A stretch of 64,000 nucleotides of DNA from Minisyncoccota bacterium (GTDB lineage: Bacteria; Patescibacteriota; Minisyncoccia; Phycocordibacterales; JBAYGS01), in assembly GCA_041666545.1 (NCBI GenBank), contig JBAYGS010000002.1, forward strand, positions 6,065 through 70,064, in the 5' to 3' direction. Shown piece after piece: positions 934 through 36,984 of the stretch (position 1 is its first letter; each line of letters opens with the position of its first letter). The notes beneath the pieces are model-generated. The model was not told the origin of the DNA and did not search any database. It was given only the letters and a program-made list of their open reading frames with translations. A program made the translations under genes and the position numbers.

Positions 934-968
934 TTTTTTTACTTAACTATAAGTGCTATAATTTCCCT

Positions 969-1361: not shown

Positions 1362-1457
1362 TTAACACGACACGAATTACGAATTAGCTCGAATGACACT
1401 AATGAAGAAAACAGATTCCAAGTTCCATTCGTGTAATTCGCATGCATTCGTGGATTA

Positions 1458-2537
1458 GTGTCGCATTGTCATATGGATTACAAAAAAGAATTGGCAGAAC
1501 TTTTGGGGACAGTAATGTCGGAAGGCGGGTCGGATTTGCATTTGTCGGAAAATCGCCAGCCAACAATTCGTGTTTCTGGTGCTCTAATTCCGCTTCTGCG
1601 TAAAGAAAAGCTAGCCAAAGCCGATGTGAAGGGTTTGGTTAAAGAGCTTTTGTTGCCGGAAAATTTCGAGAAATTTTTTGCCGAGAAGGAAATTGACTTC
1701 TCCTATGACTTTGAAGGCAAAGCCCGTTTTCGTGGCAACTGCTTTTTTCAGCAGGGCGCGGTGAGTATCGTTCTGCGTCTAATCCCAAAGCAAATCAGGA
1801 CTTTTCAAGAATTGAATTTGCCGCCAATTCTCGAGACATTTTCTCAAAAGCAACAAGGCTTTTTCTTAGTAGTTGGCCCGGTTGGTCAAGGTAAATCAAC
1901 CACGCTAGCCGCTTTGATTGAAAAGATTAATCAAGACCGAGCCGAGCACATCATCACCATTGAAGACCCCATTGAATATGTTTATGAGCCGAAGAAATCA
2001 ATCGTTGACCAACGAGAAGTGCGTAGTGATACGGCCGACTTTGGCACGGCACTCCGAAGCGTTTTCCGCGAAGATGTGAATGTGCTTTTGATTGGAGAAA
2101 TGCGCAATGCCGAGACAATTTCCACGGCTGTGACGGCGGCCGAGACCGGCCACTTGGTGCTTTCAACCTTGCACACCAATACCGCTGCGCAGACTGTTGA
2201 CCGCATCATCGACTCTTTTCCGGCCGAGCAACAAAATCAAATCAAAAACCAACTGGCCGGTAGTTTGATTGGTATCTTTTCCCAGCGCCTAATTCCAAGA
2301 ATTTCTGGCGGGTTGATTCCGGCCTATGAATTGCTCATCAACAACAGCGCGATTGCCAACTTAATCCGTGAGTCTCGAGTCCACGAAATCAATACTGTCA
2401 TTGAGACCAGTTTAGGGGAGGGAATGATTGACATGAACCGCTCGCTCATGGAATTGGTGAGAGCCGGCGAGATTACTGTTGAGAATGCTTATCAATATTC
2501 GCCGAATCCTAAGATTTTGAGTAAGCTTGTTTCATAA
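1458..2537 (+). CDS. pilT: Twitching motility / pilus retraction ATPase PilT
   Basis: 359 aa. Walker A GPVGQGKSTT, IEDPIEY, and Walker B plus His box (LIGEMRN...GHLVLSTLHT) are typical of PilT. Confidence 0.85.
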   Translation: MSHCHMDYKKELAELLGTVMSEGGSDLHLSENRQPTIRVSGALIPLLRKEKLAKADVKGLVKELLLPENFEKFFAEKEIDFSYDFEGKARFRGNCFFQQGAVSIVLRLIPKQIRTFQELNLPPILETFSQKQQGFFLVVGPVGQGKSTTLAALIEKINQDRAEHIITIEDPIEYVYEPKKSIVDQREVRSDTADFGTALRSVFREDVNVLLIGEMRNAETISTAVTAAETGHLVLSTLHTNTAAQTVDRIIDSFPAEQQNQIKNQLAGSLIGIFSQRLIPRISGGLIPAYELLINNSAIANLIRESRVHEINTVIETSLGEGMIDMNRSLMELVRAGEITVENAYQYSPNPKILSKLVS

Positions 2538-2645
2538 AATACCAATCTACGAATTTTACACCAATCAACTAATATCCGAATGAAAGTCCTAATTATTTGT
2601 TATCTGTAGATTGGAATGAGATTTGTAGATTAGTATTAAAATACT

Positions 2646-3860
2646 ATGTTATTTAATTACAAAGCTTTAGACAATAAGACGGGGCAGGAATCGACTGGTG
2701 GAATCGACGCCGTGACCGTGGATGTTGCCATTTCTTCGCTCCAAAATCGTGGCCTAACCATTTCCGAAATCCATCCAGCCGAGGAAAAAGGCTCGCTATT
2801 GGCCATGGGGAGTATGAAGTTTTTCGAGCGGGTCAATAATCGCGACATAGTCATTCTCTCCAGACAAATTGCCACACTTTTCGGCGCCCAGATTTCAGCC
2901 CTCCGAGTTTTTAAACTTTTGTCGGCTGAAGTTGAAAATCATGTTTTGTCAGAAGCGCTTTCTGATGTGGCCAACGATATTCAAGGTGGTAGCACTATCT
3001 CTCGGGCCTTGGGAAAACACCCAAAAATTTTCTCTGAATTTTATGTGAACATGGTCAAGTCGGGTGAAGAGTCGGGCAAACTCGATCAGACCTTTTTATA
3101 CTTGGCCGAATACTTGGATCGCAGTTATGAGATCAGCTCCAAGGCTCGGAACGCCCTGATTTACCCGGCCTTCGTCGTGGTGACCTTTATTGTTGTTATG
3201 ATTTTGATGCTCACGATGGTGATTCCGAAGGTAAGCGCGATTTTGAAAGAATCCGGCCAAGCTTTGCCGATTTATACTCAAATCGTTCTTGGCATCAGCA
3301 ATTTCTTTGTTGACTATGGCTTTTTACTTCTCATTCTGTTGGCTATCGGCGGTATTTTCTTATGGCGTTACGGCCGAACTCCGGCCGGCAAGCTGGCTTT
3401 TGCCAGCGTAAAAATTTCCATTCCGGCTTTAAAAAATCTTTACATCAAGCTGTATCTCTCCAGGATTGCCGACAACATGAACACTATGCTTACCAGCGGT
3501 ATTTCCATGATTCGCGCCCTCGAATTGACTGGGGCGGTTGTCGATAATGAAGTTTATCGGCAAATTTTAAATGAGGCCTCGGTCGCGGTGAAAGGTGGCA
3601 GTTCGGTTTCAGATGCGTTGAGCAAACATGAGGAAATCCCGGGTATTATGGTGGCGATGATTAAAATTGGCGAGGAAACCGGCGAATTAGGTTCAATCTT
3701 GAAGACTTTGGCCACTTTCTACATTCGCGAAGTCAATAACGCGGTGGATACTTTAGTAGGGCTCATTGAGCCGACTATGGTGGTGGCGCTCGGTCTTGGG
3801 GTCGGCGTATTGCTATCCTCCGTTTTGATTCCAATCTACAATATTTCTTCCAGCTTCTAG
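2646..3860 (+). CDS. pilC: Type IV pilus inner-membrane platform protein PilC (GspF family)
   Basis: 404 aa. Two GspF-like repeats plus three TM segments. Follows pilT. Confidence 0.85.
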   Translation: MLFNYKALDNKTGQESTGGIDAVTVDVAISSLQNRGLTISEIHPAEEKGSLLAMGSMKFFERVNNRDIVILSRQIATLFGAQISALRVFKLLSAEVENHVLSEALSDVANDIQGGSTISRALGKHPKIFSEFYVNMVKSGEESGKLDQTFLYLAEYLDRSYEISSKARNALIYPAFVVVTFIVVMILMLTMVIPKVSAILKESGQALPIYTQIVLGISNFFVDYGFLLLILLAIGGIFLWRYGRTPAGKLAFASVKISIPALKNLYIKLYLSRIADNMNTMLTSGISMIRALELTGAVVDNEVYRQILNEASVAVKGGSSVSDALSKHEEIPGIMVAMIKIGEETGELGSILKTLATFYIREVNNAVDTLVGLIEPTMVVALGLGVGVLLSSVLIPIYNISSSF

Positions 3861-4062
3861 GCCACCGTCTGCGGTTCGTCGCGTTATCCACAAGGGTGTT
3901 CTCTCTAGCTGACAAGCTTGCTATAATACTGAATGTGGAATAAAACCTCGATTGCGAGGCTAAACAGGTCGAAGTTCCCTGAAATCTGCGCGAATTTCAG
4001 ATTTTCGCAGTTGTCAGGGAAAGTAATTATTAAAAATAGTTAGTTATTAATTAATTTAAATT

Positions 4063-4476
4063 ATGAAGAAAAATAAAGGTTTTACATTGATTGAACTTTT
4101 GGTTGTTATTGCGATTATCGGTATTCTTTCGTCGGTTGTCTTGGCTTCTCTTAACACCGCTCGAGATAAGGGTAATGATGCTGCGGTCAAATCAAACTTG
4201 ACCACCGTCCGAACCCAAGCTGAATTGTGGTACGATGATCACACCAACAGCTATACGGGGATGTGTGAGGCCGATCCGATTTTGGGCGCAATTAATGCCG
4301 CCAGAACCTCTGGAGGTAACGATGCGACCTGCGTCGTTGCTACTGATGGTAATAGCTGGGGAGCTGAAGCTCAGTTGAAGGCCAGTACCAACTTTTATTG
4401 CGTGGATAGCACCGGTAAGAGTACCACTACCGCCGCAACATCAGGACTCGCAGCTGCCACTCCGTTGTGTGACTAG
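4063..4476 (+). CDS. Type IV major pilin (PilA-like)
   Basis: Class III signal MKKNKG|FTLIELLVVIAIIGIL with Glu5. 137 aa. C-terminal Cys pair. Preceded by a long structured leader (3900-4060) containing the extended -10 TGCTATAAT. Confidence 0.8.
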   Translation: MKKNKGFTLIELLVVIAIIGILSSVVLASLNTARDKGNDAAVKSNLTTVRTQAELWYDDHTNSYTGMCEADPILGAINAARTSGGNDATCVVATDGNSWGAEAQLKASTNFYCVDSTGKSTTTAATSGLAAATPLCD

Positions 4477-4600
4477 TTTTCTAATTTAAGGAAAACAATC
4501 AAAAACCACCCGGCCTAAAACTGAAAAGTTCGGCCAGGGTGGTTTTTGATTTGGGGACAAGTTGTTTGGTCTCATTCTAGATATGCGCTAAGATGGACCT

Positions 4601-5131
4601 ATGAAAAACAAAACCACCCACTACCCACTACCCACTACCCACTATTCTGGCTTTACGCTCATCGAGCTTATCGTGGTCATCGCTATTATCGGAATTCTTT
4701 CGTCGGTCGCGATGGGATTTCTTGGCGATTCTAAGATTAAAGCGCGCGACGGGAAAAGGCTGGCTGACCTCAAGCAGATTCAACTCGCTTTGGAGCTCTA
4801 TCACGATGTTTATCGAACTTATCCGGTGACTTTGGACAAATTGATCCCACCAAATAACAGTTTCTTGCCTGAAGTCCCAGTTGATCCTGATAAACAAAGT
4901 TATATTTATGTGCCGATTGGTAGCTCTGCCGGCATTACTCCACAATGCGGTTCGTATCATCTCGGCACTTACTTAGAGAAGGCCGGTAGTAGCTACTTAA
5001 AAGTTGACCGAGACGCCACTTCCAGGAGTAGTTGTGATTCAACCAAGACTGATTTTGCCGGTAATTCCAACAAATGTGTCGCTGGGGCGGCAGAGGCTAA
5101 TCCGGAGAATTGTTATGATGTGACACCCTGA
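4601..5131 (+). CDS. Type IV pilin-like protein with long conserved leader peptide
   Basis: Leader MKNKTTHYPLPTTHYSG|FTLIELIVVIAIIGIL. Cys-rich C-terminus. The leader is encoded by a (CCCACTA)x4 heptamer array. Confidence 0.7.
   Translation: MKNKTTHYPLPTTHYSGFTLIELIVVIAIIGILSSVAMGFLGDSKIKARDGKRLADLKQIQLALELYHDVYRTYPVTLDKLIPPNNSFLPEVPVDPDKQSYIYVPIGSSAGITPQCGSYHLGTYLEKAGSSYLKVDRDATSRSSCDSTKTDFAGNSNKCVAGAAEANPENCYDVTP
4617..4644 (+). repeat. (CCCACTA)x4 heptanucleotide tandem array inside a pilin leader
   Basis: Read directly from the sequence. Encodes THYPLPTTHY. Confidence 0.8.
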
Positions 5132-5314
5132 AGAAGTTAGTAGCCCCGACGCTTTGTCTCACAAAGGTTGGGGTCCCGACTTCTGGCGTCGGGATGGGGT
5201 AGTGAGTAGTTAAAGATAAGATTTAAGAGCCCGAGGTCGCGCGGCGCGACCTCGGGCTTTGTTCTTGTTCGATTAGGTTTTTGAGCTTAAAAAGGTTAAA
5301 ATTATTTCAACCTT

Positions 5315-6139
5315 ATGTCGGTGTATTTACTCCAATTGGAAAGAGAGCGAGCGAAGATCAGAAGCCATGTCGCCCGCTTTGATGCCCATGTTCACGAAAA
5401 ACAGGGTGGAGGTTTTACTTTTATTGAACTTTTGATTTCGATTACCATCATTGGAATTTTTTCGACTATCGTTCTGGGTACTATCAATTCAGCGCGTCTG
5501 AAGGGGCGCGACTCGGCCATTAAGGAACAATTTCACAGTGTTCGAACCCAGGTCTCTCTTTATCAAATTGATAATGGCAATTATGGCACGGCCAATAACA
5601 CCGGAGGTGGCGCCAGTTGTTCCGCTTCCGGGTCGGTATTTGTGAGCACGAAGATCGCGGAGCTCTTGGCCTCAGTCCAAAACGCTTCTGGCGGGTCAGC
5701 AATTTGTGCTTCTGACCGCAGTAAGTGGGTCGCGTCTGTGCCACTTGCGACCGATGCTACCAAGTCCTGGTGTACCGATTCCGCGGGTTTTGCCGGTCAG
5801 GGTTATGCTGACACAACCTCAACGGCAATCAAATGTGTGGCGACCGATCCGGGCGGTGGAGGTGATACCACTGATTCTGATGGCGACGGTCTCACCAATA
5901 CCGCCGAAACCACTATCCATAACACTAACCCAAATTTGAGCGATACCGACGGCGACAATCTGTCCGATGGCGCCGAGGTGAATACTTATCACACCGACCC
6001 TACTCTCATGGATACCGACGGCGACGGTTTTTATGACGGGGTCGAGGTCTTAACTTTCGGCACCGATCCGCTTGATCCGAACAGTTACCCTCAAGGCGAT
6101 CCGCCTTTCGGCAGTGATAATTACAGTAGTAATAATTAA
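5315..6139 (+). CDS. Pilin-like protein with C-terminal thrombospondin type-3-like Ca-binding repeats
   Basis: GGG|FTFIELLISITIIGIF prepilin core after a long N-terminal extension (start codon uncertain). The C-terminus carries at least 3 DTDGDGxxDGxEV...TDP repeats. Confidence 0.6.
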   Translation: MSVYLLQLERERAKIRSHVARFDAHVHEKQGGGFTFIELLISITIIGIFSTIVLGTINSARLKGRDSAIKEQFHSVRTQVSLYQIDNGNYGTANNTGGGASCSASGSVFVSTKIAELLASVQNASGGSAICASDRSKWVASVPLATDATKSWCTDSAGFAGQGYADTTSTAIKCVATDPGGGGDTTDSDGDGLTNTAETTIHNTNPNLSDTDGDNLSDGAEVNTYHTDPTLMDTDGDGFYDGVEVLTFGTDPLDPNSYPQGDPPFGSDNYSSNN

Positions 6140-6147
6140 CCGACACA

Positions 6148-6954
6148 ATGAATTATCTAGTTGGCACAGCTTTTTTCCTGCTTGGTCTAATCATTGGCAG
6201 TTTTCTCAATGTCCTGATTTTGCGATATCGCACCGGCCGGACCGTGCTTGGTCGGTCCGCCTGTTTCTCCTGTGGGACGACTCTCATTTGGCAAGATCTG
6301 GTTCCGGTTTTCAGTTTTTTAGCAATTGGGGGTAAGTGTCGAAGTTGCGGTAGCAAAATTTCAATCCAGTATCCACTAGTCGAGTTCCTGACCGGCTTAA
6401 TTTTTTTGGCAGTGTTTTGGCAGGTTGGTCTTAGGTTTGGTTTGGAGTCGCTGTTCTATCTGATTTATTACCTAATCATTTGGAGCCTGTTGATTGTAAT
6501 TTTGGTCTACGATCTAAGGCATAAAATTATTCCCGACGGTTTCGTTTACACTTTTGCGATTTTGGCGTTGGTTAATTTTCTGGCCATTACACCATTTGAA
6601 CAGCTATCACAGTCTTCCGGACTTTGGGAGCTTTTGGCCGGTCCGATTTTGTTCCTGCCTTTCTTTTTGGTTTGGTCGCTGTCGCGTGGCCGACTGATGG
6701 GTTTGGGAGATGGTAAATTGGCCTTGGGTATCGGCTGGATGCTGGGACTTGCCAAGGGTGGCACAGCAATTATTTTGGGTTTTTGGGTTGGAGCAGTAGT
6801 AAGCATCATTTTGCTCATTCTCTCCAAACTCGGTTTGTCTTTGGGTGGTAAACCGCTTACAATTAAAAGTGAAGTCCCGTTTGCGCCCTTTCTAATTCTT
6901 GGAATTTTGATTGTCTTTCTAACCGGATTTAACCTATTTGCAATCGGACTTTGA
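6148..6954 (+). CDS. pilD: Prepilin peptidase PilD (peptidase A24)
   Basis: 268 aa. N-terminal CxxC...CxxC Zn motif, polytopic membrane body, catalytic Asp in the GLGDGKL context. Confidence 0.85.
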   Translation: MNYLVGTAFFLLGLIIGSFLNVLILRYRTGRTVLGRSACFSCGTTLIWQDLVPVFSFLAIGGKCRSCGSKISIQYPLVEFLTGLIFLAVFWQVGLRFGLESLFYLIYYLIIWSLLIVILVYDLRHKIIPDGFVYTFAILALVNFLAITPFEQLSQSSGLWELLAGPILFLPFFLVWSLSRGRLMGLGDGKLALGIGWMLGLAKGGTAIILGFWVGAVVSIILLILSKLGLSLGGKPLTIKSEVPFAPFLILGILIVFLTGFNLFAIGL

Positions 6955-6957
6955 AAT

Positions 6958-7596
6958 ATGGATATGCGAAAAACTACTCACTACTCACTACCCACTAATC
7001 ACTCTTCCGGGTTCAGTCTCATCGAGCTTTTAGTGGTCTTGGCCATTTTTTCTGTCATTACTGCCGTGGTGTTGGTACAAGGCAACCGTTTTGATAGCTC
7101 GATTTTGTTAACTAATTTGGCTTACGAGACGGCGCTTACTGTCCGTGAGGCCCAAGTGTACGGTATCAGTGTTAAGGGTGAAACCAGCGCTTCAGCACTG
7201 GCGTTCCAGCATGCCTACGGAGTGTATCTCAACACTCTTGATGATAAGTCGATTACCTCGTTTGCGGACCGGAATGATAATCAAGTCTACGATTCTGGCG
7301 ACAATGCCTGTGGCGGAGGAAGTAGTGAATGCTTGGATATTCTTAAAATGAGTCGCGGTAATCATCTCGGCAAGATTTGTGCCATTTCAACCGGCGTTTC
7401 GGCCACCGAATTTTGTAGCGACACTAACGGCTCATTCAATGATTTGAGCATTACTTTCAAAAGACCCAATCCGGATGCGGTTATTAAAAATGGTCTAGGT
7501 ACTTATCAAAACGCCTCGATTTATCTAACCTCGGCTGATGGCTTGGGAACCAGAGTTTTAAAAATTGAATCAACCGGCCAAATATCCATTGAATAG
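6958..7596 (+). CDS. Minor pilin / pseudopilin
   Basis: Leader MDMRKTTHYSLPTNHSSG|FSLIELLVVLAIFSV. The heptamer array encodes the leader. Confidence 0.65.
   Translation: MDMRKTTHYSLPTNHSSGFSLIELLVVLAIFSVITAVVLVQGNRFDSSILLTNLAYETALTVREAQVYGISVKGETSASALAFQHAYGVYLNTLDDKSITSFADRNDNQVYDSGDNACGGGSSECLDILKMSRGNHLGKICAISTGVSATEFCSDTNGSFNDLSITFKRPNPDAVIKNGLGTYQNASIYLTSADGLGTRVLKIESTGQISIE
6973..7007 (+). repeat. (ACTACTC)-family heptamer array x5 inside a pilin leader
   Basis: actactc actactc actaccc actaatc actcttc. Confidence 0.8.
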
Positions 7597-7633
7597 GTAT
7601 AGAGTATAAGGTATATGGTATAGAAAAAAGAAA

Positions 7634-8179
7634 ATGAAACTTCCAAAATCAAAAACTACTCACTACTCACTACCCACTAATCACTCTTCCGGGTTTACCC
7701 TCGTCGAAACTATCGTGGCAGTTTTCATTTTTACAATTGTGATGACTGTGGCGGCCGGCGCGATCCTGAATATCATCAGTGTCAGTCGGAAAGCCCAGTC
7801 GCTAAGCTCGGTAATCAATAATCTGAATTTGGCGATTGATACGATGTCTCGCGATATCAGATTCGGTACCGAATATGTCGGCAACCGCTGTGTCGATTCG
7901 ATTTGTCAGGAGATTCGATTCGTCAACAAAGACGGTGCGGAGACTTCTTATTATTCGGATAATAAGCAACTTTTTAAAAAAACCACAGTCTCCGGTGCGG
8001 TCAATACTTCTGTGGTGACGGCCAAGGAGGTTCTTCTGGAGAGGATGGATTTCTATCTGACCGATGCGACCGGCTTGATCCCCAGAGTTCTATTTGTCGG
8101 CAAAGGGGAAGTGGTAAGTAAAGGGGTGGTCCTGTCATCTTTTGATATTCAAACGACGGTCACTCACCGCACTATTTAA
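7634..8179 (+). CDS. Minor pilin / pseudopilin
   Basis: Leader MKLPKSKTTHYSLPTNHSSG|FTLVETIVAVFIFTIV. Confidence 0.65.
   Translation: MKLPKSKTTHYSLPTNHSSGFTLVETIVAVFIFTIVMTVAAGAILNIISVSRKAQSLSSVINNLNLAIDTMSRDIRFGTEYVGNRCVDSICQEIRFVNKDGAETSYYSDNKQLFKKTTVSGAVNTSVVTAKEVLLERMDFYLTDATGLIPRVLFVGKGEVVSKGVVLSSFDIQTTVTHRTI
7655..7689 (+). repeat. (ACTACTC)-family heptamer array x5 inside a pilin leader
   Basis: Identical 35-nt array to 6973-7007. Confidence 0.8.
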
Positions 8180-8191
8180 CATAAACTAAAC

Positions 8192-8776
8192 ATGCTAAAA
8201 ACTACTCACTACTCACTACTCACTACGCACTCTACAGGCTTCACTCTGATTGAGACCTTGGCGGCCGTGTCGATTTTGATGATTGCGGTCGCCGGTCCGC
8301 TAACTCTGGCCAATCGCTCCCTTAGCTCATCAATCTTTGCTAAGCAACAATTGACAGCTTCGCTTCTGGCCCAAGACTTGGCCGAGTATGTGGTGGCTGG
8401 GCGGGGTGCTAATGCCGGAAAATCCGACACGGCCTGGTTGGGCAATTTGAGTCAGTGTACCGAAGCTGACCCCTGTGGTCTCGACACTCTTAAAGGTTTT
8501 GATGTCAGTGGCAATTCTCAAGGTATGGTCCAGTGCTCAGCGCCGGATTTTGAAAGTTGCCGTCTGACTTTCAGCTCGACGAGTGGCACTTATGGTCACG
8601 ACTTGTCGATGCCGGGTAACGGCATTAACAAGTCGTCTTTCGTCCGAACTTTTGCCTTATCTTCGATTAACGATCGGGAAGCCCAAATACTTGTGAAGGT
8701 CTTGTGGGATCAGGGTATTACCAGAAGGAGTATCATTTTACGCACCAGCCTTTTCAACCTGTTCAAGGAAATTTAA
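8192..8776 (+). CDS. Minor pilin / pseudopilin
   Basis: Leader MLKTTHYSLLTTHSTG|FTLIETLAAVSILMIAV. Confidence 0.65.
   Translation: MLKTTHYSLLTTHSTGFTLIETLAAVSILMIAVAGPLTLANRSLSSSIFAKQQLTASLLAQDLAEYVVAGRGANAGKSDTAWLGNLSQCTEADPCGLDTLKGFDVSGNSQGMVQCSAPDFESCRLTFSSTSGTYGHDLSMPGNGINKSSFVRTFALSSINDREAQILVKVLWDQGITRRSIILRTSLFNLFKEI
8201..8235 (+). repeat. (ACTACTC)-family heptamer array x5 inside a pilin leader
   Basis: actactc actactc actactc actacgc actctac. Confidence 0.8.
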
Positions 8777-8785
8777 ATTTGTCTT

Positions 8786-9358
8786 ATGACCTCCAAACTT
8801 TCAAACTTCCAAACTTCAAAACTAATAACACGCGCCTCGCGTCGTTCCGGTTTTACCATGCTCTTTGCTGTTTTGATTTCAGGTGTTTTGATGGCGATCG
8901 GAATTTCAATTTTCAATATCTCAATCAAAGAAGTTCGCTTGTCGTCGACGGCGCGCGATTCCAATCTGGCTTTTTACGCTTCTGACACTGGCCGAGAGTG
9001 CGCTATTTACTGGGATATGGCCGCCAAGAAGAAACTGAACGGCACTGACGCCTACGGTTTTGCCACTTCCACCGACAATAGCGTGGCGATTATTTCTGCG
9101 GACCAGTTTAGTTGCGGTGGCCAAATTAAAGATTTTCAGATTACTGTTCGGACCAGTGATAAGGCGACCACCAAATTTACAATTCAGCTTGGGGGTGATT
9201 TCGATCTGCCTTACTGTGCTGATGTGGCCGTCACTAAGGTCAAAAATTATGATACTGACACTTTTGATACCAATATCTCCGCCCAAGGCCACAACACCTG
9301 TGATTTGACCAATCCGGTAATAATCGAGCGAGGCACAGAAGCCAATTATTCCCAGTAG
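8786..9358 (+). CDS. Pilin-like protein lacking Glu5 (PilX-like)
   Basis: ...RRSG|FTMLFAVLISGVLMAIGISIF hydrophobic prepilin-like N-terminus with no Glu at +5. The leader contains an in-frame 8-mer DNA repeat (8793-8823). Confidence 0.5.
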   Translation: MTSKLSNFQTSKLITRASRRSGFTMLFAVLISGVLMAIGISIFNISIKEVRLSSTARDSNLAFYASDTGRECAIYWDMAAKKKLNGTDAYGFATSTDNSVAIISADQFSCGGQIKDFQITVRTSDKATTKFTIQLGGDFDLPYCADVAVTKVKNYDTDTFDTNISAQGHNTCDLTNPVIIERGTEANYSQ

Positions 9359-14531: not shown

Positions 14532-15221
14532 CTAAAATTTTTCAACATGTTTCCGAAAGGCCGAGATAGAACCCAACACTTCTCTTCTTAAATCTGTGCC
14601 CAGTCTGACTTTGACTCTCAAAGTCCCAAGGTAGTTTTCGTTGTTTCCATATACCTTTTTTATGGGGGTTTTAATTAGGCTCGGCTTGGTAAATTGTGTT
14701 TCTGGTATGCCTAAAATCCTCGACCATTTCGAAGTTATCTGCTCGAGCCTTTTTTCGTGTACTCTGTTTATGCTGATACGCAATATCAGTCTGTGCTTGT
14801 CGATTGAGTGTGTCGTCTGTAGCCAAACGAGTATAATTTTAATTATGTCGGGATCGCTGTTGGTGATCCCAAATTCCTCGTTGCCTTTTTTATATCCTTC
14901 CGCCCAATATAGTGCCAAACCTATCATGTTTAAGTCACGCTTAGTTATCTGACCGATCTTGTTGAACCCAGTTTTCGTAAGACTGGCAATTTTTTGCAGC
15001 CGATTTCTTCTAAGTCTTTCAGTGTGGGCGGACAGGCCTCTTAAGCCACTTATTTTAAGCCTGTTCTTTATCTCGGTTTTTTGTTTTTGTGTAAGTGTAA
15101 TATCTCTACACCAATAACTGACCGTCGTCTTGTTTGCCGATAGCAATAATGATATCTCGGTTATTGTTTTTCCAGCTTTTCTTAGAGATCTTGCTTCTTC
15201 TTTTTTCTTAATTTGTGCCAT
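14532..15221 (-). CDS. HTH-domain protein with LAGLIDADG-like endonuclease motif (candidate homing endonuclease-like); paralog of 21464-22051
   Basis: 229 aa, AT-rich. N-terminal HTH (KTITEISLLLSANKTTVSYW). Motif IGLALYWAEGYKKGN...ITNSDPDIIKIIL resembles the single-motif LAGLIDADG family. Lies 87 nt from the intron-containing tRNA-fMet. Confidence 0.5.
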   Translation of the reverse strand: MAQIKKKEEARSLRKAGKTITEISLLLSANKTTVSYWCRDITLTQKQKTEIKNRLKISGLRGLSAHTERLRRNRLQKIASLTKTGFNKIGQITKRDLNMIGLALYWAEGYKKGNEEFGITNSDPDIIKIILVWLQTTHSIDKHRLILRISINRVHEKRLEQITSKWSRILGIPETQFTKPSLIKTPIKKVYGNNENYLGTLRVKVRLGTDLRREVLGSISAFRKHVEKF

Positions 15222-15307
15222 GGTGCTTAGGCAATTGTACCGTACTCGTAATTACAGTGCTTGCTAGCGGCCGTCTTTTGGGTTATCCTTTACCTTGCAG
15301 AGAATAT

Positions 15308-15587
15308 CGCGGGGTAGAGCAGCGGTAGCTCGTCAGGCTCAATTGGGCTCACATATGTAGTAATGCTATGTGGAATATCTATCAAACTCGGTGAAACTTT
15401 ACCTGCCTGTGGCAGCTAGCAATACCGAGCCAAGCCCTGAAATATCAGGGAAGGTGTAGAGACTAGACGGTAGACCCCTTTAGGATAAAGGGTGAAGGTA
15501 TAGTCCAGACCACAAACCGAAAAGGCAACGAAAGTTGTAGTGGTAAGCATAACCTGAAGGTCGTTGGTTCAAATCCAACCCCCGCAA
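15308..15587 (+). tRNA. tRNA-fMet (anticodon CAT, initiator-like) interrupted by a group I intron. Exons are 15308-15339 and 15548-15587.
   Basis: The joined exons (CGCGGGGUAGAGCAGCGGUAGCUCGUCAGGCUCAUAACCUGAAGGUCGUUGGUUCAAAUCCAACCCCCGCAACA) fold as a cloverleaf, closely resemble the E. coli tRNA-fMet sequence as recalled from memory (not aligned), and have a C1xA72 mismatch. No encoded CCA. Confidence 0.8.
15340..15547 (+). ncRNA. Group I self-splicing intron (about 208 nt, small IC3-like) in the anticodon loop between U33 and C34
   Basis: Upstream exon ends in U and the intron ends in G. The core contains GAAGGUGUAGAGACUAGACGG (P7 5' strand / R-like) and AAGGUAUAGUCCAGACC (S-like / P7 3'), as in bacterial tRNA group I introns. 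Confidence 0.75.
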
Positions 15588-15596
15588 CAATTTAAG

Positions 15597-15627
15597 AAAA
15601 ATCGCCCAGAACGGTGGCGATTTTTCT
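15597..15627 (+). terminator. Intrinsic terminator after tRNA-fMet
   Basis: AUCGCC...GGCGAU hairpin followed by UUUUUCUUU. Confidence 0.6.
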
Positions 15628-15659
15628 TTGTAAAAATTTTATGTTATCTTAATTTCATT

Positions 15660-15732
15660 GTCGGGGTAGCTCAGTTGGTAGAGCACAGGACTCATAAGCC
15701 TGGGGTCGTGGGTTCGATCCCCACCCCCGACA
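15660..15732 (+). tRNA. tRNA-Met (CAT; elongator, or the Ile2 lysidine type cannot be excluded)
   Basis: 73 nt cloverleaf: acceptor GUCGGGG/CCCCGAC, D arm GCUC-AGUUGGUA-GAGC, anticodon loop CUCAUAA, T loop UUCGAUC. Confidence 0.85.
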
Positions 15733-15747
15733 CACGAAGTGGTTAGG

Positions 15748-15875
15748 CCGACACGAGTAGTGTCGGCGGGGGATGGGGTCGAAAAGCTTCTCCCATATTT
15801 TTGAGGATTTCCTAATCTGAAAAAACGGGAAAGCTGTACTGAAGCTGCAAGCTTCGACCCCCACCCTCGACACAA
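15748..15875 (+). repeat. Inverted (about 15748-15783) and direct (15852-15873) copies of the tRNA-Met 3' end (T arm plus acceptor)
   Basis: GUGUCGGCGGGGGAUGGGGUCGAA is roughly the reverse complement of UUCGAUCCCCACCCCCGACAC. UUCGACCCCCACCCUCGACA matches the tRNA 3' end at 20 of 22 positions. Confidence 0.6.
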
Positions 15876-16002
15876 ATTTTTCTCTGTGCACAACCGGCTT
15901 GCTTATAAAAAGCGAGTTGTTTTGCTGTATCCACAGACTGACTACTTAAATTTCCGACTAGGAGTATCATTATTGTCAGAACCTCAACCAAAGGATTCGG
16001 TT

Positions 16003-16476
16003 ATGAAAGTTATTAAGTTCGCGGTTGTTTTGTTTGTCTCAATTACGGCGCAGGCCCAGACTAACGCACCATTTGCCTTTGCTAAACTTTCCGACAAGCC
16101 GAGTTTACCACTCGTATCTCCGGAAGGCCGGATTATTGAGGCCAGGATCAAAAAGCTTGACCAGTCCGCTTTTGAAAAACGCGTTGCCAAACTCGGCTTG
16201 CCCCAGCTTCAGCAGAAACCTGAGCCAGCCGGCAGTTTTCAGAAGATTTTGAATGGTATTGACCTCGATCTGCCTGAAGGTGAGGGCCCTGAGATGATCA
16301 ACATCGAGACGGTGAGCTTTGGTCGCGGCAATGCCGAGACTTTTTACGACCGGGTTGATGTCTTCGAGTCAAATCTTTCGCCCCGAGTTTCCGTTTGCTA
16401 TCCGACCTTGATCTTCGAATCTTCGAGCCGAGGCGGCAATGACGGTGCCTTTTTCCTGCTTAATCTCAAGTTCTAG
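16003..16476 (+). CDS. Secreted hypothetical protein
   Basis: Start taken at MKVIKFAVVLFVSITAQA (signal peptide) with AAAGGA 8 nt upstream. The longer ORF call (15886) would overlap the tRNA repeat region. Confidence 0.5.
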   Translation: MKVIKFAVVLFVSITAQAQTNAPFAFAKLSDKPSLPLVSPEGRIIEARIKKLDQSAFEKRVAKLGLPQLQQKPEPAGSFQKILNGIDLDLPEGEGPEMINIETVSFGRGNAETFYDRVDVFESNLSPRVSVCYPTLIFESSSRGGNDGAFFLLNLKF

Positions 16477-16555
16477 TTTCATTCAAAGCGACCCAACCGG
16501 GTCGCTTTTTGTTGCCCTAAAATGAAAAATCTGTTAGATTTTGGTAGTTAGAAAT

Positions 16556-16627
16556 GCGGTTGTAGCTCAACGGTAGAGCACTCCCCTGTCACGGGAGAGG
16601 TCGCGGGGTCAGCACCCGTCAACCGCG
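16556..16627 (+). tRNA. tRNA-Asp (GTC) with atypical T loop
   Basis: Cloverleaf with acceptor GCGGUUG/CAACCGC and anticodon loop CUGUCAC. The T loop is GUCAGCA rather than UUCRANN, so this call is less certain. Confidence 0.6.
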
Positions 16628-16807
16628 CAAACAAAACCCCGCAAGGGGTTTTTGCTTGCGCGGTTGAAGAAATGTCTGGGAGACATTTCGTCGGGTGCTG
16701 ACCAGCGGAGCGGGCACCGGCTCACCAGAGCCGGGCGCGAGCTGGCGGTTAAACAAAGTTTTGCGACGGCAAAACTTTAGTTGGAACCAGCACCCGTCAA
16801 CCGCGCA
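16610..16807 (+). repeat. 20-nt direct repeat of the tRNA-Asp 3' end (16610-16629 and 16788-16807) flanking an inverted copy (16668-16703, split by a hairpin) and a roughly 160-nt hairpin-rich spacer
   Basis: CAGCACCCGUCAACCGCGCA occurs twice. GCGCGGUUGA...CGGGUGCUGACC is its reverse complement carrying an inserted hairpin. A terminator hairpin lies at 16633-16654. Confidence 0.7.
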
Positions 16808-16914
16808 CTGATTTCGTTGCTATTTTAAGCCACGAAGAATTCATGGGTGCAATGGACTTGGACCATGTTATAATTTCCTTATTCATTCATTATTAATTAC
16901 ATACAAATAGTCAT

Positions 16915-17184
16915 ATGGAACAAATTAAAAAAGATCCTAAAATTGAAGGAAATCAAGGCTTGGATGTTATTGTCTCCAGTCTAGCTTCAAGTGGGGCCAA
17001 TCTACCAGGTCTTGAATTAGCTATTAATGATGTTCGTCTGGCAATGCGTGATCCAAGTTCCTCAGACAGACCGAAAGCCAATGCCTCCTTAGACTTATTA
17101 GTACAAGAACTGAATGATAAGGGGGTAGACTTGACTAGAGTGCAGGATCAAGTAACTGCAGTAAGACAAGCAATCCGAGGATAA
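16915..17184 (+). CDS. Hypothetical small protein (AT-rich)
   Basis: 89 aa ORF. Extended -10 TGTTATAAT at about 16866. No motif. Weak call. Confidence 0.3.
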   Translation: MEQIKKDPKIEGNQGLDVIVSSLASSGANLPGLELAINDVRLAMRDPSSSDRPKANASLDLLVQELNDKGVDLTRVQDQVTAVRQAIRG

Positions 17185-17259
17185 TTTTATCCCAAATTGG
17201 GTATTATTATAGGCATACTCGTTGTGGTCTTGAATAGTAGTTCCTATCTCGTCCACTAG

Positions 17260-17293
17260 TCCGCGCAAACAAAAACGCCTCCGGGCGTTTTTG
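17260..17293 (+). repeat. Third partial copy of the tRNA-Asp 3' trailer (CCGCGCAAACAAAA plus terminator hairpin)
   Basis: CCGCGCAAACAAAA followed by AACGCCUCCGGGCGUUUUU. Compare 16622-16654. Confidence 0.5.
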
Positions 17294-17294
17294 C

Positions 17295-17470
17295 TGTTCT
17301 TTTTTGCAGAGAACCCCGCCCGACTCCCTCCGCCCCGCGGAGGGCGGGGTGAATGCATCGGTCTAAACGCGAAGCGCGACCCAAAGGAAACCCCGCATGA
17401 CCGAGTCTTCGAGGAAGCGCGGGGAGGACGTCCGTTTGATTTTTGCCTCGAAGTGAGTAATATCAAAGTA
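17295..17470 (+). ncRNA. GC-rich, highly structured non-coding region (candidate small RNA; identity unknown)
   Basis: Nested hairpins CCCCGCCC..CCCUCCG-CCCCG-CGGAGGG..CGGGG and CCCCGC...GCGGGG. No credible ORF. GC is well above the local level. Confidence 0.3.
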
Positions 17471-21145: not shown

Positions 21146-21185
21146 TTATTGCAAATGCCCGCCCACGGGGCGGGCATTTGTCTTG

Positions 21186-21435
21186 AGCCGTTGTCCAGGA
21201 TTGAACTGGAGACCTCGTCATTCGTTTGCACCTCTCTTTGCAGGAGGACTAGACTGTATCTTTTTCCGTATCATAGACGGAAACCCTTGTCAGTCGTTCG
21301 GGCGACTTTATCGCCACGGTCTTATCCCAGAGGGACTTTAACCGTTATTCGGGATTCATAAGGAGATTACTCTCCAAATGGGCAGGGGGGTTACGACCCA
21401 CCAATGACGTGCTCTACCGACTGAGCTACAACGGC
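21186..21435 (-). tRNA. tRNA-Thr (GGT) interrupted by a group I-like intron. Exons are 21400-21435 and 21186-21222 on the minus strand.
   Basis: Joined exons: GCCGUUGUAGCUCAGUCGGUAGAGCACGUCAUUGGUAAUGACGAGGUCUCCAGUUCAAUCCUGGACAACGGCU, a perfect cloverleaf with anticodon GGU. Confidence 0.75.
21223..21399 (-). ncRNA. Small (about 177 nt) group I-like intron between anticodon nt 36 and 37 of tRNA-Thr(GGT)
   Basis: Exon ends in U and the intron ends in G. Contains GACUGACAAGG ... AAGAUACAGUCUAGUCC (a P7-like GACUG/CAGUC pairing with an S-like AAGAUA.AGUC element). Shorter than the smallest group I introns I can recall, so the confidence is lower. Confidence 0.55.
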
Positions 21436-21463: not shown

Positions 21464-22051
21464 CTAGATATTATCAATCTTGTCGCACAGTAGCCTTTTA
21501 AGTTTGATATTGTTGAAGTATACCATCAGCACACCATTCTCAGATTTATATTTATAGGTTCCACTTCCTCTGACTTTAGAAATTATTATCTTATAAAATT
21601 GTTTTTTGCTAACTTTCAAAGTTTTGGTCCAAAAACTCAGTGCCTTCTCTGGTGAAATATCGCCAAAAATTTGAAGCCCAAAGTGTAGGCTCTTTTTGTT
21701 GATAGAATAAAACACTTCCAAAAAATCAATAAATTTTCTAATAAGATTGGCATCGGTGTTTCCAAGTCGCACTCCGCCGTTGCCACGCTTTGCTCCCTCT
21801 CCCCAATAAAGGCCAAGACCTAATCCGTAAAGAACTCCCTCGTCTACATTTTTTGGGAATGTCACCATAAAAGGATCACCAAGCGGATTATGTTTTTGGT
21901 ATATAGCTTCAGAAATTGATCTTTTGCTTATTTCGTATTTGCTCAGCCAGTAATTCACCTTACCTTCTGAGCAATTAATCTTTTCAGCAATCTGTGCTGC
22001 AGAGAGTTTGCTATTCTGATACAGTTCAGTTAATTCGCTTCTTTTAATCAT
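21464..22051 (-). CDS. HTH-domain protein with LAGLIDADG-like motif; paralog of 14532-15221
   Basis: 195 aa, AT-rich. HTH LSAAQIAEKINCSEGKVNYW. GLGLGLYWGEGAKRGN...LGNTDANLIRKFIDFL aligns with the other copy across the C-terminal domain. Lies 29 nt upstream of the intron-containing tRNA-Thr on the same strand. Confidence 0.5.
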   Translation of the reverse strand: MIKRSELTELYQNSKLSAAQIAEKINCSEGKVNYWLSKYEISKRSISEAIYQKHNPLGDPFMVTFPKNVDEGVLYGLGLGLYWGEGAKRGNGGVRLGNTDANLIRKFIDFLEVFYSINKKSLHFGLQIFGDISPEKALSFWTKTLKVSKKQFYKIIISKVRGSGTYKYKSENGVLMVYFNNIKLKRLLCDKIDNI

Positions 22052-35883: not shown

Positions 35884-36015
35884 AGAACTATCCTTTCTTT
35901 GTGTGGAGTCGCAGGATTGCGTCTCTGGCTCAAGTGTAGAGGATTGACTGGACTCCAACAATAGGTTTTGTCGAAAAGTTCGACAGAAAATTTAGGGTGT
36001 GCTAGACTAGTAAAC

Positions 36016-36914: not shown

Positions 36915-36984
36915 CTAACGGGGTTGAATAAAAGCCAATTTTGAAGTATCTTTCTATTATCTGAAAAGGGTTTGTGCCTAAAGC

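What the first reader, a model, noticed from the sequence alone, without database searches (positions are those of the whole stretch)
15733..17293. tRNA-Met and tRNA-Asp are each followed by an inverted and then a direct copy of their own 3' end: integration scars or structured trailers
Downstream of tRNA-Met(CAU) there is a near reverse-complement of its T-arm/acceptor (15748-15783) and then a 22-nt direct copy (15852-15873, 20 of 22 identical). Downstream of tRNA-Asp there is a terminator, a reverse-complement copy split by an inserted hairpin (16668-16703), a hairpin-rich GC spacer, and then a perfect 20-nt direct repeat (16788-16807). A third partial copy plus terminator sits at 17260-17293. 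A 20-nt exact repeat is far beyond chance in 64 kb. Direct repeats of tRNA 3' ends are the hallmark attL/attR remnants of integrative elements that target tRNA genes. The repeated pattern at two adjacent tRNAs suggests a recombination hot spot. The AT-rich orphan ORF at 16915-17184 and the odd T loop of tRNA-Asp (GUCAGCA) may be by-products. Alternatively, the inverted copies could pair with the tRNA 3' end in the primary transcript and control processing.
Basis: seen in the sequence. Interest (0 to 1): 0.6.

Follow-up and report, generated by a model that had tools for sequence, protein, structure and literature searches.

The report
Hairpin insertion modules at tRNA ends
The repeated tRNA-end copies are real: they mark small pieces of DNA inserted right after two tRNA genes of an uncultured (CPR/Patescibacteria) bacterium, including a conserved hairpin-rich element whose inverted copy always matches its own genome's tRNA.

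Summary

**Insertion evidence**
- Relatives with empty sites show that the direct copies bound inserted DNA: 140 nt after tRNA-Met and about 640 nt after tRNA-Asp.
- The third Asp copy plus its terminator looks like the displaced native tRNA end.
- The AT-rich ORF lies between direct copies 2 and 3. Its roughly 30-nt right end (…TCCACTAGT|CCGCGCA) is shared with two unrelated single-ORF cassettes in a distant relative.

**The element next to the tRNA is not a decaying scar**
- It belongs to a modular, non-coding hairpin family found after tRNA-Asp in five genomes and after tRNA-Met in two.
- Its inverted copy matches each genome's own tRNA 3' end best.
- That inverted copy is always split by a homologous hairpin.
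- It forms a long palindrome with the tRNA end; at tRNA-Asp this runs through the terminator.

**What was not found**
- No recombinase, attP or Rfam family.
- The helices are almost purely Watson-Crick and fold equally well on both strands.

**Verdict**
Most likely these are DNA-level insertion modules at a tRNA hot spot, moved by an unknown enzyme acting in trans (confidence about 0.5). An RNA-level role and a replication template-switch origin remain open.

The parts
15660..15733 (+). tRNA-Met(CAU), elongator type. Its last 22 nt (15713-15734, 'A1') are the repeated block.
15735..15759 (+). Spacer of the Met element. It includes a 7-nt mini direct copy, CCGACAC (15748-15754), that forms a hairpin with 15760-15766. 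There is no terminator here.
   Evidence: (D11).
15760..15783 (+). Inverted copy (A') of the tRNA-Met 3' end.
   Evidence: score 24; 0 of about 2000 random windows reach it; 20/24 to its own tRNA, its best match.
15784..15852 (+). Body of the Met element (69 nt). GTACTG lies at 15836-15841, followed by a small hairpin at 15841-15855 with loop UGCAA.
   Evidence: The L037 Met element has a 69-nt body with the same GTACTG-plus-hairpin.
15853..15874 (+). Direct copy (A2) of the tRNA-Met 3' end, 20/22. The sequence after it is the native downstream DNA.
   Evidence: Relatives L029 and L036 have this downstream sequence directly after the tRNA.
15895..15919 (+). Native terminator-like hairpin of tRNA-Met, displaced 140 nt by the insert.
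   Evidence: It is conserved after the tRNA in L029, L028 and L027.
16556..16628 (+). tRNA-Asp(GUC), without an intron, T loop GUCAGCA. Its 3' block A1 is 16607-16629.
   Evidence: The same T loop is found in L030, L034, L037, L038, L043 and L032.
16630..16656 (+). Terminator T1: stem CCCC/GGGG, GCAA loop, U tract. It forms the tip of the long palindrome A1:T1:A'.
   Evidence: (I2).
16657..16667 (+). Left arm of the inverted copy. It is complementary to the last T-stem base, the acceptor 3' strand, the discriminator and 2 further nt.
   Evidence: I2, I23; 23/23 together with the right arm.
16668..16690 (+). Hairpin HPa, which splits the inverted copy. It is homologous in position and in its 5' sequence (AGAAAGC-like) in all the elements.
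   Evidence: I25.
16692..16703 (+). Right arm of the inverted copy, complementary to the T loop and the T-stem 3' strand. It includes 3 nt that lie outside the direct repeat.
   Evidence: I16.
16702..16745 (+). Stem CCAGC/GCTGG enclosing hairpin HPb (loop ACCA). The CCAGCGGAG motif is conserved in L030, L034 and L036.
16755..16778 (+). Hairpin HPc: a 10-bp stem with loop GACG. It is identical in L030; in L034 the stem sequence differs but the loop is the same.
16788..16807 (+). Direct copy A2 of the tRNA-Asp 3' end, 20/20. It starts in the T loop and ends 2 nt past the discriminator.
   Evidence: D6.
16808..17260 (+). AT-rich single-ORF cassette. It has a TGTTATAAT -10-like box at 16866-16874 and an 89-aa ORF at 16915-17184 with no family match. 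The conserved right end, AGTTCCTATCTCGTCCACTAGT, starts at 17239.
17261..17267 (+). Third copy A3 (CCGCGCA), the likely crossover core.
   Evidence: D5.
17268..17293 (+). Terminator T2, nearly identical to the terminator that directly follows tRNA-Asp in L030. It is probably the displaced native terminator.

Best explanation
The 3' ends of tRNA-Met and tRNA-Asp in this Paceibacteria-like CPR bacterium are insertion hot spots. The copies of the tRNA ends belong to small DNA modules inserted there.

**Direct copies**
- They are the duplicated identity block of the attachment site. In tRNA-Asp the block runs from the T loop to 2 nt past the discriminator.
- The tRNA stays intact, and the old end with its native downstream DNA is pushed away: 140 nt at tRNA-Met and about 640 nt at tRNA-Asp.

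**The module next to each tRNA ('E')**
- It is 118 nt between the repeats at tRNA-Met and 158 nt at tRNA-Asp.
- It belongs to one family of non-coding, hairpin-rich elements.
- Each element carries an inverted copy of the tRNA end split by a conserved hairpin (HPa), then variable hairpins, then the direct copy. The Asp version also carries a replacement terminator.
- The order is: tRNA end, spacer, inverted copy, spacer, direct copy. A circular element whose attachment site is a folded hairpin would leave exactly this order after one strand exchange. Integron attC and CTXphi attP(+) work this way.

**Second module at tRNA-Asp**
- A single-ORF cassette with conserved ends follows E, giving a short cassette array.

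**Shown versus inferred**
- Shown: the insertion/deletion polymorphism, the module family, the fact that each inverted copy matches its own genome's tRNA best, and the cassette ends.
- Inferred: that the modules move by site-specific recombination, that the recombinase is encoded elsewhere and acts in trans, and that the palindrome is the recombination site.
For: **Empty sites**
- tRNA-Met in L029 and L036 is followed directly by the sequence that follows the direct copy in the window and in L037. L034 and L043 also lack the insert.
- tRNA-Asp in L038, L043 and L032/33 is followed by a terminator only.

**Displaced native end**
- A3 plus T2 in the window closely matches the tRNA tail plus terminator of L030.

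**Allele evidence**
- In L037 the direct copies match the tRNA alleles of other genomes better than the genome's own tRNA. Asp: 15/15 to the L034/L043 type against 14/15 to its own. Met: 23/24 to L034 against 22/24 to its own.

**Cassettes**
- Three cassettes with unrelated ORFs share the motif AGTTCY…TCCACTAGT|CCGCSCA: the 89-aa ORF in the window, and a 125-aa ORF and an APH-type kinase in L034.
- L034 has a second E copy at the far end of its array.

**One family at two tRNAs**
- The HPa hairpin of the L037 Met element (GGAAGCA…TGCTTCC) resembles the HPa of the L034 Asp element.
- GTACTG followed by a small hairpin precedes the direct copy in Met elements (window, L037) and Asp elements (two in L034, one in L037).

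**Patchy distribution**
- The Met element is present in the window and in distant L037 but absent from the closer relative L029.

**DNA-like helices**
- There are 0-5 G.U pairs per 50-104 pairs on the + strand, and both strands fold equally well (-46.7 kcal/mol each as DNA, z about -12).

**Known precedents**
- Tandem islands bounded by 20-bp repeats of the ssrA 3' end, with insertion in the T loop and a conserved motif just upstream of each repeat (PMC3146451).
- CTXphi integration leaves att-like sites in opposite orientation about 90 bp apart (PMC3089051).
Against: - No integrase, transposase or Rep protein was found among 30 window ORFs or among the genes annotated around L001, L034, L036 and L037.
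- No free attP or element copy was found in IMG/VR, phage or plasmid collections.
- The modules are tiny and non-coding.
- The inverted copy pairs better and over a longer stretch with the tRNA's own end than with the direct copy. L036 has no direct copy at all. The selected feature may therefore be the palindrome with the tRNA, not a folded attachment site.
- Retargeting from tRNA-Asp to tRNA-Met needs both the inverted and the direct copy to be replaced, and I have no shown mechanism for that.
- Precise loss by recombination between the direct repeats could produce the patchy distribution without any mobility.
- Only five to seven element copies from short metagenomic contigs were available.
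Confidence: 0.5

Rival explanations
1. The element is a cis-acting RNA structure, a structured trailer. The inverted copy can pair with the tRNA 3' end in read-through or precursor transcripts, and the direct copy acts as a decoy that frees it. The element would control or insulate tRNA 3' maturation or termination, or yield a stable 3'-spacer RNA.
For: - Each inverted copy matches its own genome's tRNA-Asp or tRNA-Met 3' end best.
- 9 of 39 consensus pairs show changes on both sides with the pair kept.
- Hairpins HPa, HPb and HPc are kept although their stem sequences change.
- The fold is very stable: -88.8 kcal/mol (z -7.6) for the element and -142.7 kcal/mol (z -9.9) together with the tRNA.
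- The Met element has no terminator before it, so it is probably co-transcribed.
- The small hairpin before the direct copy has GNRA-like loops on the + strand (GUAA, UGUAA, UGCAA).
Against: - At tRNA-Asp an intrinsic terminator with a U tract lies between the tRNA and the inverted copy in all five genomes.
- The helices are almost purely Watson-Crick, and there is no strand asymmetry.
- Relatives with the same tRNA lack the element.
- In L037 the direct copies match foreign or older tRNA alleles better than the genome's own.
- No Rfam family matches.
- This explanation does not account for the cassettes with conserved ends.
Confidence: 0.2
2. The arrangement is a by-product of replication errors. 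Fold-back or template switching at the terminator palindrome created a direct-inverted-direct 'inverted triplication' of the tRNA end. Quasi-palindrome correction then keeps the arms complementary without any function.
For: - The order direct, inverted, direct, with the first junction centred on the terminator loop.
- CAGC/GCTG microhomologies lie at the module junctions.
- The arms are perfectly Watson-Crick on both strands.
- In L034 a displaced copy and its inverted partner carry the same compensating change, away from any tRNA.
- Template-switch models for such structures exist (PMC10766183 and PMC4689423, listed; I saw only their titles and abstracts).
Against: - The same modular hairpins (HPa, HPb, HPc, GTACTG plus hairpin) recur across genomes whose neighbouring proteins are only 20-70% identical, and at two different tRNAs.
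- 84 nt of material not derived from the tRNA lies between the inverted and direct copies.
- HPa interrupts the inverted copy at the same position in every Asp element and in the L037 Met element.
- The cassettes with conserved ends are not explained.
Confidence: 0.15
3. These are ordinary decayed remnants of integrase-encoding prophages or genomic islands that once sat in these tRNA genes. Nothing in them is conserved or active now.
For: - Direct repeats of tRNA 3' ends are the classic attL/attR signature.
- The ORF between copies 2 and 3 is AT-rich.
- tRNA fragments also lie downstream of a tRNA-Arg in another CPR genome, L005.
Against: - The tRNA-proximal module is conserved over deep divergence, and its inverted copy tracks the local tRNA.
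- 68 nt are 100% identical between the window and L030, although the flanking proteins are only 66-72% identical.
- There is no trace of an integrase pseudogene, and no phage or plasmid homology.
Confidence: 0.1

Closest known systems
Tandem genomic islands at t(m)RNA genes made by site-specific integrases, e.g. the Dehalococcoides ssrA islands (PMC3146451); mycobacteriophage Ms6 integrating at the tRNA-Ala T loop (PMC1762012, title and abstract only)
   Same: - The gene stays intact.
- A roughly 20-bp direct repeat of its 3' end bounds each insert.
- The identity block starts in the T loop.
- Several inserts lie in tandem.
- A conserved motif sits immediately upstream of each repeat.
- Strains differ in insert content.
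   Different: - No integrase or integration module was seen here.
- The inserts are 0.12-0.45 kb rather than kilobases.
- The tRNA-proximal insert is non-coding and carries an inverted copy of the attachment site that tracks the local tRNA.
Folded single-strand attachment sites: integron attC sites (PMC2727003, title and abstract only) and CTXphi attP(+) (PMC3089051)
   Same: - The integrated order is site, spacer, inverted site, about 70-90 nt, site.
- Two helices are separated by an asymmetry and capped by a variable branched region.
- Structure is conserved more than sequence.
- Single-ORF cassettes follow one another.
   Different: - The target is a tRNA 3' end, not attI or dif.
- There is no IntI gene, no GTTRRRY core, and no rolling-circle or phage genes.
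- The inverted copy pairs best with the tRNA's own end, through a terminator.
- The cassettes have their own -10-like boxes.
- The two cassette right ends I checked for an inverse core have none.
Guide-bearing mobile elements: IS200/IS605 guide sequences, IS110/IS1111 bridge or seek RNAs, CAST homing spacers against tRNA genes (recalled from my own knowledge, not tested here)
   Same: One scaffold (HPa, GTACTG plus hairpin) is found with different target-complementary segments at two different tRNAs.
   Different: - No transposase, recombinase or Cas genes.
- The complementarity is 23 nt and is a palindrome partner in cis.
- No terminal features of those families.
Inverted triplications produced by replication template switching (ODIRA, DUP-TRP/INV-DUP)
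   Same: Direct-inverted-direct order, with junctions at short palindromes.
   Different: - Here the units are about 20 nt.
- They are separated by conserved hairpins not derived from the tRNA.
- The arrangement is conserved across genera.

Membership tests
tRNA-targeting integrative element (attL/attR of an integrase-mediated insertion) | A direct repeat of the tRNA 3' end bounds the insert, and the tRNA gene is left intact. | tested here: met
tRNA-targeting integrative element (attL/attR of an integrase-mediated insertion) | Related genomes have empty sites in which the tRNA is joined directly to the DNA that follows the distal repeat. | tested here: met
   - tRNA-Met: L029 and L036 show the same downstream sequence; L034 and L043 also lack the insert.
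- tRNA-Asp: L038, L043 and L032/33 lack the element.
- The window's A3+T2 matches the tRNA tail plus terminator of L030.
tRNA-targeting integrative element (attL/attR of an integrase-mediated insertion) | An integrase or recombinase gene lies inside or next to the insert. | tested here: not met
   - The inserts hold no such ORF.
- 30 further window ORFs have no recombinase domain.
- None is annotated in the neighbourhoods of the relatives.
- The rest of the genome was not available.
tRNA-targeting integrative element (attL/attR of an integrase-mediated insertion) | A matching attP exists on a free phage, plasmid or other element. | tested here: not met
   - No exact matches in IMG/VR.
- The four IMG/VR hits to the cassette-end 16-mer look random.
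- Phage and plasmid collections match only the tRNA body.
Integron (attI/attC cassette array) | An IntI-type tyrosine recombinase gene with an adjacent attI and promoter. | tested here: not met
   annotations.
Integron (attC site) | An imperfect palindrome with an inverse core (RYYYAAC) and a core (GTTRRRY) at the end of each cassette. | tested here: not met
   - The core here is CCGCGCA/TGCGCGG.
- Only the E module has an inverse core.
- By reading, the right ends of the window cassette and the first L034 cassette have none.
- The overall stem, asymmetry and branched cap resemble attC only in structure.
CTXphi-type element with a folded single-strand attP (IMEX) | Two attachment-like sites lie in opposite orientation, tens of nt apart, and fold into a hairpin that mimics the target. 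| tested here: met
   - The inverted and direct copies are 84 nt apart at tRNA-Asp and 69 nt apart at tRNA-Met.
- They close a stable fold.
- Definition taken from PMC3089051.
CTXphi-type element with a folded single-strand attP (IMEX) | The target is dif, the enzyme is XerCD, and the element has a single-stranded replicative form with its own genes. | tested here: not met
   The target is a tRNA 3' end, and the modules are non-coding. Whether a single-stranded form exists cannot be tested here.
Structured cis-regulatory or trailer RNA | Base pairs are maintained by compensatory changes across homologues. | tested here: inconclusive
   - 9 of 39 pairs are compensatory.
- Each inverted copy matches its own tRNA best.
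- However, there are only five sequences, one side of the pairs is a constrained tRNA, and DNA-level palindrome correction would give the same pattern.
Structured cis-regulatory or trailer RNA | Strand-specific RNA signatures (G.U pairs, one strand folding better) and transcription across the element. | tested here: inconclusive
   - There are 0-5 G.U pairs per 50-104 pairs, and both strands fold equally.
- GNRA-like loops on the + strand occur in one small hairpin.
- Transcription is not testable with these tools.
Known RNA family (Rfam 15) | A match to a curated covariance model. | tested here: not met
   Nothing matches in the elements at E up to 5 in the window or E up to 1 in the relatives, apart from spurious miRNA-hairpin and leader hits.
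MITE / transposon with terminal inverted repeats | Terminal inverted repeats at the ends of the element, flanked by a short target duplication. | tested here: not met
   By reading, the ends of the insert (AACAAAACC… and …TTAGTTGGAAC) are not inverted repeats. The 'duplication' is 20-22 nt of tRNA.

The most novel reading that the evidence does not exclude
E is a non-autonomous, retargetable recombination module. Its tRNA-complementary arm, folded against the tRNA-end copy, specifies the target through nucleic-acid structure or pairing. It seeds an integron-like array of single-ORF cassettes at the tRNA-Asp 3' end in CPR bacteria. This would be a cassette-capture system that uses a tRNA end as its 'attI', with a recombinase not yet identified.
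Probability: 0.2. Interest if true: 0.85.

Novelty: new variant of a known kind. Interest (0 to 1): 0.62.

Why it matters
Direct repeats of tRNA ends are textbook signs of integration. Three things here are not textbook:
- A conserved, non-coding hairpin module whose inverted copy follows the local tRNA sequence.
- The recurrence of that module at two different tRNAs.
- Its position at the head (and, in one relative, both ends) of a mini cassette array, with no recombinase in sight.

If the modules are active, they would reveal how ultra-small CPR genomes acquire and shuffle single genes. They would also point to a recombination system, possibly structure- or pairing-directed, that could be found by phylogenetic profiling.

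If they act as RNA, they would be an unusual tRNA-linked switch, with antisense and decoy copies of the tRNA end.

Either way, intron-containing tRNAs and tRNA-end copies in these genomes are missed or misread by standard annotation.

Tried and rejected
- **attP search.** Exact searches for both tRNA-end blocks, the L034-type Asp block and an 18-mer of the element in IMG/VR found nothing.
- **Cassette-end 16-mer.** It gave four IMG/VR hits, all in unrelated coding DNA, which I judged random.
- **Phage and plasmid collections.** Blastn matched only the tRNA-Asp body.
- **Synteny through the histidine phosphatase gene.** In GTDB genomes it gave only relatives at up to 64% identity, without the tRNAs.
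- **JGI metagenome scan for the tRNA-Asp end.** It returned only one other organism, which lacks the element.
- **tRNA-Thr 30-nt 'repeat' (21072/21185).** I considered it a third case and rejected it. It is the 3' end of a neighbouring tRNA-Thr(GGU) gene that contains an intron.
- **General CPR feature?** A scan of 34 tRNAs in all loci held found signals only at tRNA-Met and tRNA-Asp of the window and L037, plus tRNA-Arg fragments in L005.
- **Retroviral-type primer-binding site.** Rejected, because the inverted copy complements the genomic trailer, not a CCA end.
- **K-turn in HPb, tRNA-like cloverleaf, MITE.** I considered these by reading the sequence and found no support.
- **Protein families.** Pfam and PHROGs gave nothing for the 89-aa and 157-aa ORFs.
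- **Nearby recombinase.** None found among 30 window ORFs.
Full report
**1. Observation**

ARAGORN and Rfam call tRNA-Met(CAU) at 15660-15733 and tRNA-Asp(GUC) at 16556-16628.

- Met direct copy at 15853-15874, 20/22 identical.
- Asp exact 20-mer at 16788-16807.
- Asp inverted arms at 16657-16667 and 16692-16703, both 100% complementary, separated by a hairpin at 16668-16690.
- A third copy at 17261-17291 that repeats the last 7 nt of the tRNA block plus a terminator.

The Met inverted copy is 15760-15783, with 20 matches and three 1-nt indels. Positions 15748-15754 are a separate 7-nt mini-copy.

Neither block occurs elsewhere in the 64 kb, against 0.01 and 0.00 expected. None of about 2000 random 200-nt windows reaches any of the four scores.

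**2. Organism and context**

The window is from a Patescibacteria (CPR) genome that NCBI names Candidatus Paceibacterota.
- Near-identical contigs exist in three other samples.
- The gene order is gatC, gatA, a 189-aa ORF, tRNA-fMet, tRNA-Met, a 157-aa ORF, tRNA-Asp, then a histidine phosphatase and a P-type ATPase.
- It is partly syntenic with relatives L036, L034 and L043.

**3. The direct copies bound insertions**

*tRNA-Met*
- In L029 (157-aa ORF 52% identical) the tRNA is followed at once by the sequence that follows the direct copy in the window. This is …TTTCTYCTGTGCAYAAC…GCTTGCTT.TAAAAAG…, including the native terminator at 15895-15919. The DNA upstream of the tRNA is also homologous.
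- L036 shows the same downstream sequence directly after its tRNA. L034 and L043 also lack the insert.
- Distant L037 has an insert of the same build, and again the native downstream DNA follows its direct copy.

*tRNA-Asp*
- L038, L043 and L032/33 carry the same unusual tRNA followed only by a terminator.
- The window's third copy plus T2 (CCGCGCAAACAAAAACGCCTCCGGGCGTTTTTGCTG) is almost identical to the tRNA tail plus terminator of L030.
- So the native 'tRNA end plus terminator' appears to have been pushed 638 nt downstream.

**4. The tRNA-proximal insert is a conserved module family ('E')**

Orthologous tRNA-Asp loci in L030, L034, L036 and L037 were reached through the phosphatase and through a LAGLIDADG gene that precedes tRNA-Asp in relatives. 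All show the same series:
- tRNA end (A1).
- A terminator T of different sequence in each genome.
- An inverted copy (A') split by a hairpin, HPa.
- Further hairpins.
- A direct copy (A2), except in L036, which has none.

The tRNA itself differs between these genomes:
- The acceptor stem is GCGGTTG, GCGGCTG or GCGGCCA.
- The T-stem 3' strand is CCCGT or CCCAT.
- L036 has a normal TTCGAGC T loop.

In each genome the inverted copy matches that genome's own tRNA best:

| Genome | Match to own tRNA | Best match to other tRNA variants |
|---|---|---|
| Window | 23/23 | 22/23 |
| L030 | 21/22 | 20/22 |
| L034 | 23/23 | 22/23 |
| L037 | 19/22 | 18/22 |
| L036 | 24/26 | 18/26 |

(The window and L030 share the same tRNA 3' end, as do L034 and L043, and L037 and L038; those identical variants give tied scores and are not counted as 'other'.)

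Other structural evidence:
- RNAalifold recovers the A1:T:A' hairpin with the HPa branch. 9 of 39 pairs changed on both sides with the pair kept.
- HPa is homologous across elements (AGAAAGC…GCTTTCT-like, with changed stems).
- HPb keeps its flanking CCAGCGGAG/GCTGG and an A-N-Y-A loop.
- HPc keeps its GACG loop over different stems.
- The L037 Met element has an HPa (GGAAGCATGTGATGCTTCC) like that of the L034 Asp element.
- GTACTG plus a 4-5-bp hairpin precedes the direct copy in both Met elements and in three Asp elements.
- The Met and Asp inserts are therefore one family, with tRNA-specific inverted and direct copies.

**5. Cassettes**

In L034 the Asp element is followed by two single-ORF segments: a 125-aa membrane-like ORF and an APH-type kinase.
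- Each ends in AGTTCY(8-9 nt)TCCACTAGT|CCGCSCA.
- A second E copy follows them before the conserved ATPase gene.
- In that second copy the displaced block reads CCGCCCA and the inverted arm reads TGGGCGG. Complementarity is therefore kept away from any functional tRNA. A scaffold gap lies inside this palindrome.

The window's AT-rich 89-aa ORF segment (16808-17260) has the same right end (17239-17267).
- Its left end, CTGATTTCGT, is similar to that of the first L034 cassette.
- All three cassettes have a TGTTATAAT or TGGTATAAT box upstream of the ORF.
- The ORFs have no Pfam or PHROG match.

**6. RNA or DNA?**

*For an RNA role*
- Complementarity is maintained.
- The folds are very stable.
- There is no terminator ahead of the Met element.
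- GNRA-like loops occur in one small hairpin.

*Against an RNA role*
- In all five genomes an intrinsic terminator with a U tract lies between tRNA-Asp and the inverted copy.
- G.U pairs are almost absent: 0-5 per 50-104 pairs on the + strand.
- Both strands fold equally well, -46.7 kcal/mol each as DNA for A1:T:A'.
- No Rfam family matches.
- The element is missing from close relatives with the same tRNA.

The inverted copy pairs better with the tRNA's own end than with the direct copy. It includes 3 nt outside the repeat (I16).

**7. Mechanism (inferred)**

A circle that carries one copy of the block, paired with its inverted copy, would integrate by one strand exchange within the block. The result is exactly block, X, inverted block, Y, block.
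- This is the layout left by integron cassettes and by CTXphi, whose two att-like sites lie in opposite orientation about 90 bp apart and fold into a hairpin (PMC3089051).
- The identity block starting in the T loop, the tandem inserts, and a conserved motif just upstream of each repeat mirror the serine-integrase ssrA islands of Dehalococcoides (PMC3146451).
- In L037 the direct copies match other genomes' tRNA alleles better than the resident gene. This fits hybrid sites made by recombination.

What is missing:
- Any recombinase (and the neighbourhood annotations).
- Any free form of the element.
- A way to replace both tRNA-specific parts when moving between tRNAs.

Precise loss between the repeats could also give the patchy distribution. 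I therefore put 0.5 on 'DNA-level insertion modules at a tRNA hot spot'. Within that, only about 0.2 goes to the specific folded-site, cassette-capture reading.

**8. Rivals**

- A cis-acting RNA switch or insulator: 0.2.
- An inverted triplication from template switching at the terminator palindrome, kept complementary by quasi-palindrome correction: 0.15.
- Ordinary decayed island remnants: 0.1.

The mosaic pattern between the window and L030 fits none of these simply. 68 nt are 100% identical next to hairpins with almost no shared sequence, while the flanking proteins are 66-72% identical.

**9. Verdict**

- The direct repeats are a known kind of signature.
- The conserved hairpin module that tracks the local tRNA, shared by two tRNAs and flanking a mini cassette array without a recombinase, is a new variant worth following up.

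Limits:
- Only five to seven element copies were available, mostly from short metagenomic contigs.
- One copy spans a scaffold gap.
- There are no transcript data.
- The rest of the genome was not available.

Noticed in passing
window 15309-15590 (+): A tRNA-fMet(CAU) gene is split in the anticodon loop by an insert of about 230 nt that matches the group I intron model (47.8 bits, E 1.6e-10, just under the gathering score of 50). ARAGORN and the Rfam gathering-threshold search both miss the gene.
   Followed up: partly
window 21185-21432 (-) and 21464-22051 (-): A second tRNA-Thr (GGU) carries an insert of about 190 nt after the anticodon. It lies directly upstream of tRNA-Thr(CGU). It is preceded by a 195-aa ORF with only weak HTH matches, whose homologue holds the same position in L043. 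Rfam does not call the insert a group I intron at E up to 1.
   Followed up: partly
L028 729-1349, L030 3-500, L034/L036 4001-4621, L037 1693-2364, L038 954-1643, L043 4001-4618: A free-standing LAGLIDADG endonuclease gene ends inside the first bases of tRNA-Asp in relatives. In L028, L030, L034 and L036 the tRNA is also interrupted after the same position; Rfam matches a group I intron in L030, L034 and L036 (41-43 bits). The window has neither. More than 2200 homologues of this endonuclease exist in the protein collection.
   Followed up: partly
window 14532-15221 (-): A 229-aa ORF with a LAGLIDADG-like motif (LALYWAEGYK) lies divergently upstream of the intron-containing tRNA-fMet. It has no Pfam hit. 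A similar ORF ends just before tRNA-Met in L037.
   Followed up: no
L001 1-756 versus window 14894-15651: A 194-kb contig from another sample is 99.98% identical to the window from the 5' end of tRNA-Met onwards. Upstream it has unrelated sequence (a 175-aa ORF with no family match), and it has one SNP in the tRNA D loop. This is either a strain rearrangement at the tRNA or a chimeric assembly.
   Followed up: partly
window 16604-16616 (T arm of tRNA-Asp): The T loop GUCAGCA (G54 and G58 instead of T54 and A58) is conserved in tRNA-Asp of at least seven CPR genomes, with or without the element. L036 has a normal loop. It is a lineage feature, not damage.
   Followed up: partly
window 36977-37062: The acceptor stem of tRNA-Gln is extended by 8 bp of leader-trailer pairing (15-nt arms, 93% complementary).
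   Followed up: no
window 17294-17440: A GC-rich stretch full of hairpins (e.g. CCCTCCGCCCCGCGGAGGGCGGGG) lies between terminator T2 and the phosphatase gene. It has no Rfam match and no copy elsewhere in the loci held. Similar GC-rich hairpin stretches occur upstream of the LAGLIDADG gene in L037.
   Followed up: no
L005 7230-7345 (-): Another CPR genome has fragments of tRNA-Arg (a copy of the T arm and acceptor, then a copy of the D/anticodon part) downstream of the intact tRNA-Arg.
   Followed up: no
window 43-9358 and 35029-35961 (-): A type IV pilus or competence-like cluster is present: two T2SSE ATPases, T2SSF, a prepilin peptidase and four N-methyl pseudopilins. A metallo-beta-lactamase-fold protein matches the anti-Pycsar Apyc1 family (1e-32).
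   Followed up: no
L036 1-504: A reverse-transcriptase (RVT_1) gene lies immediately upstream of gatC in the syntenic relative. It is absent at that position in the window.
   Followed up: no
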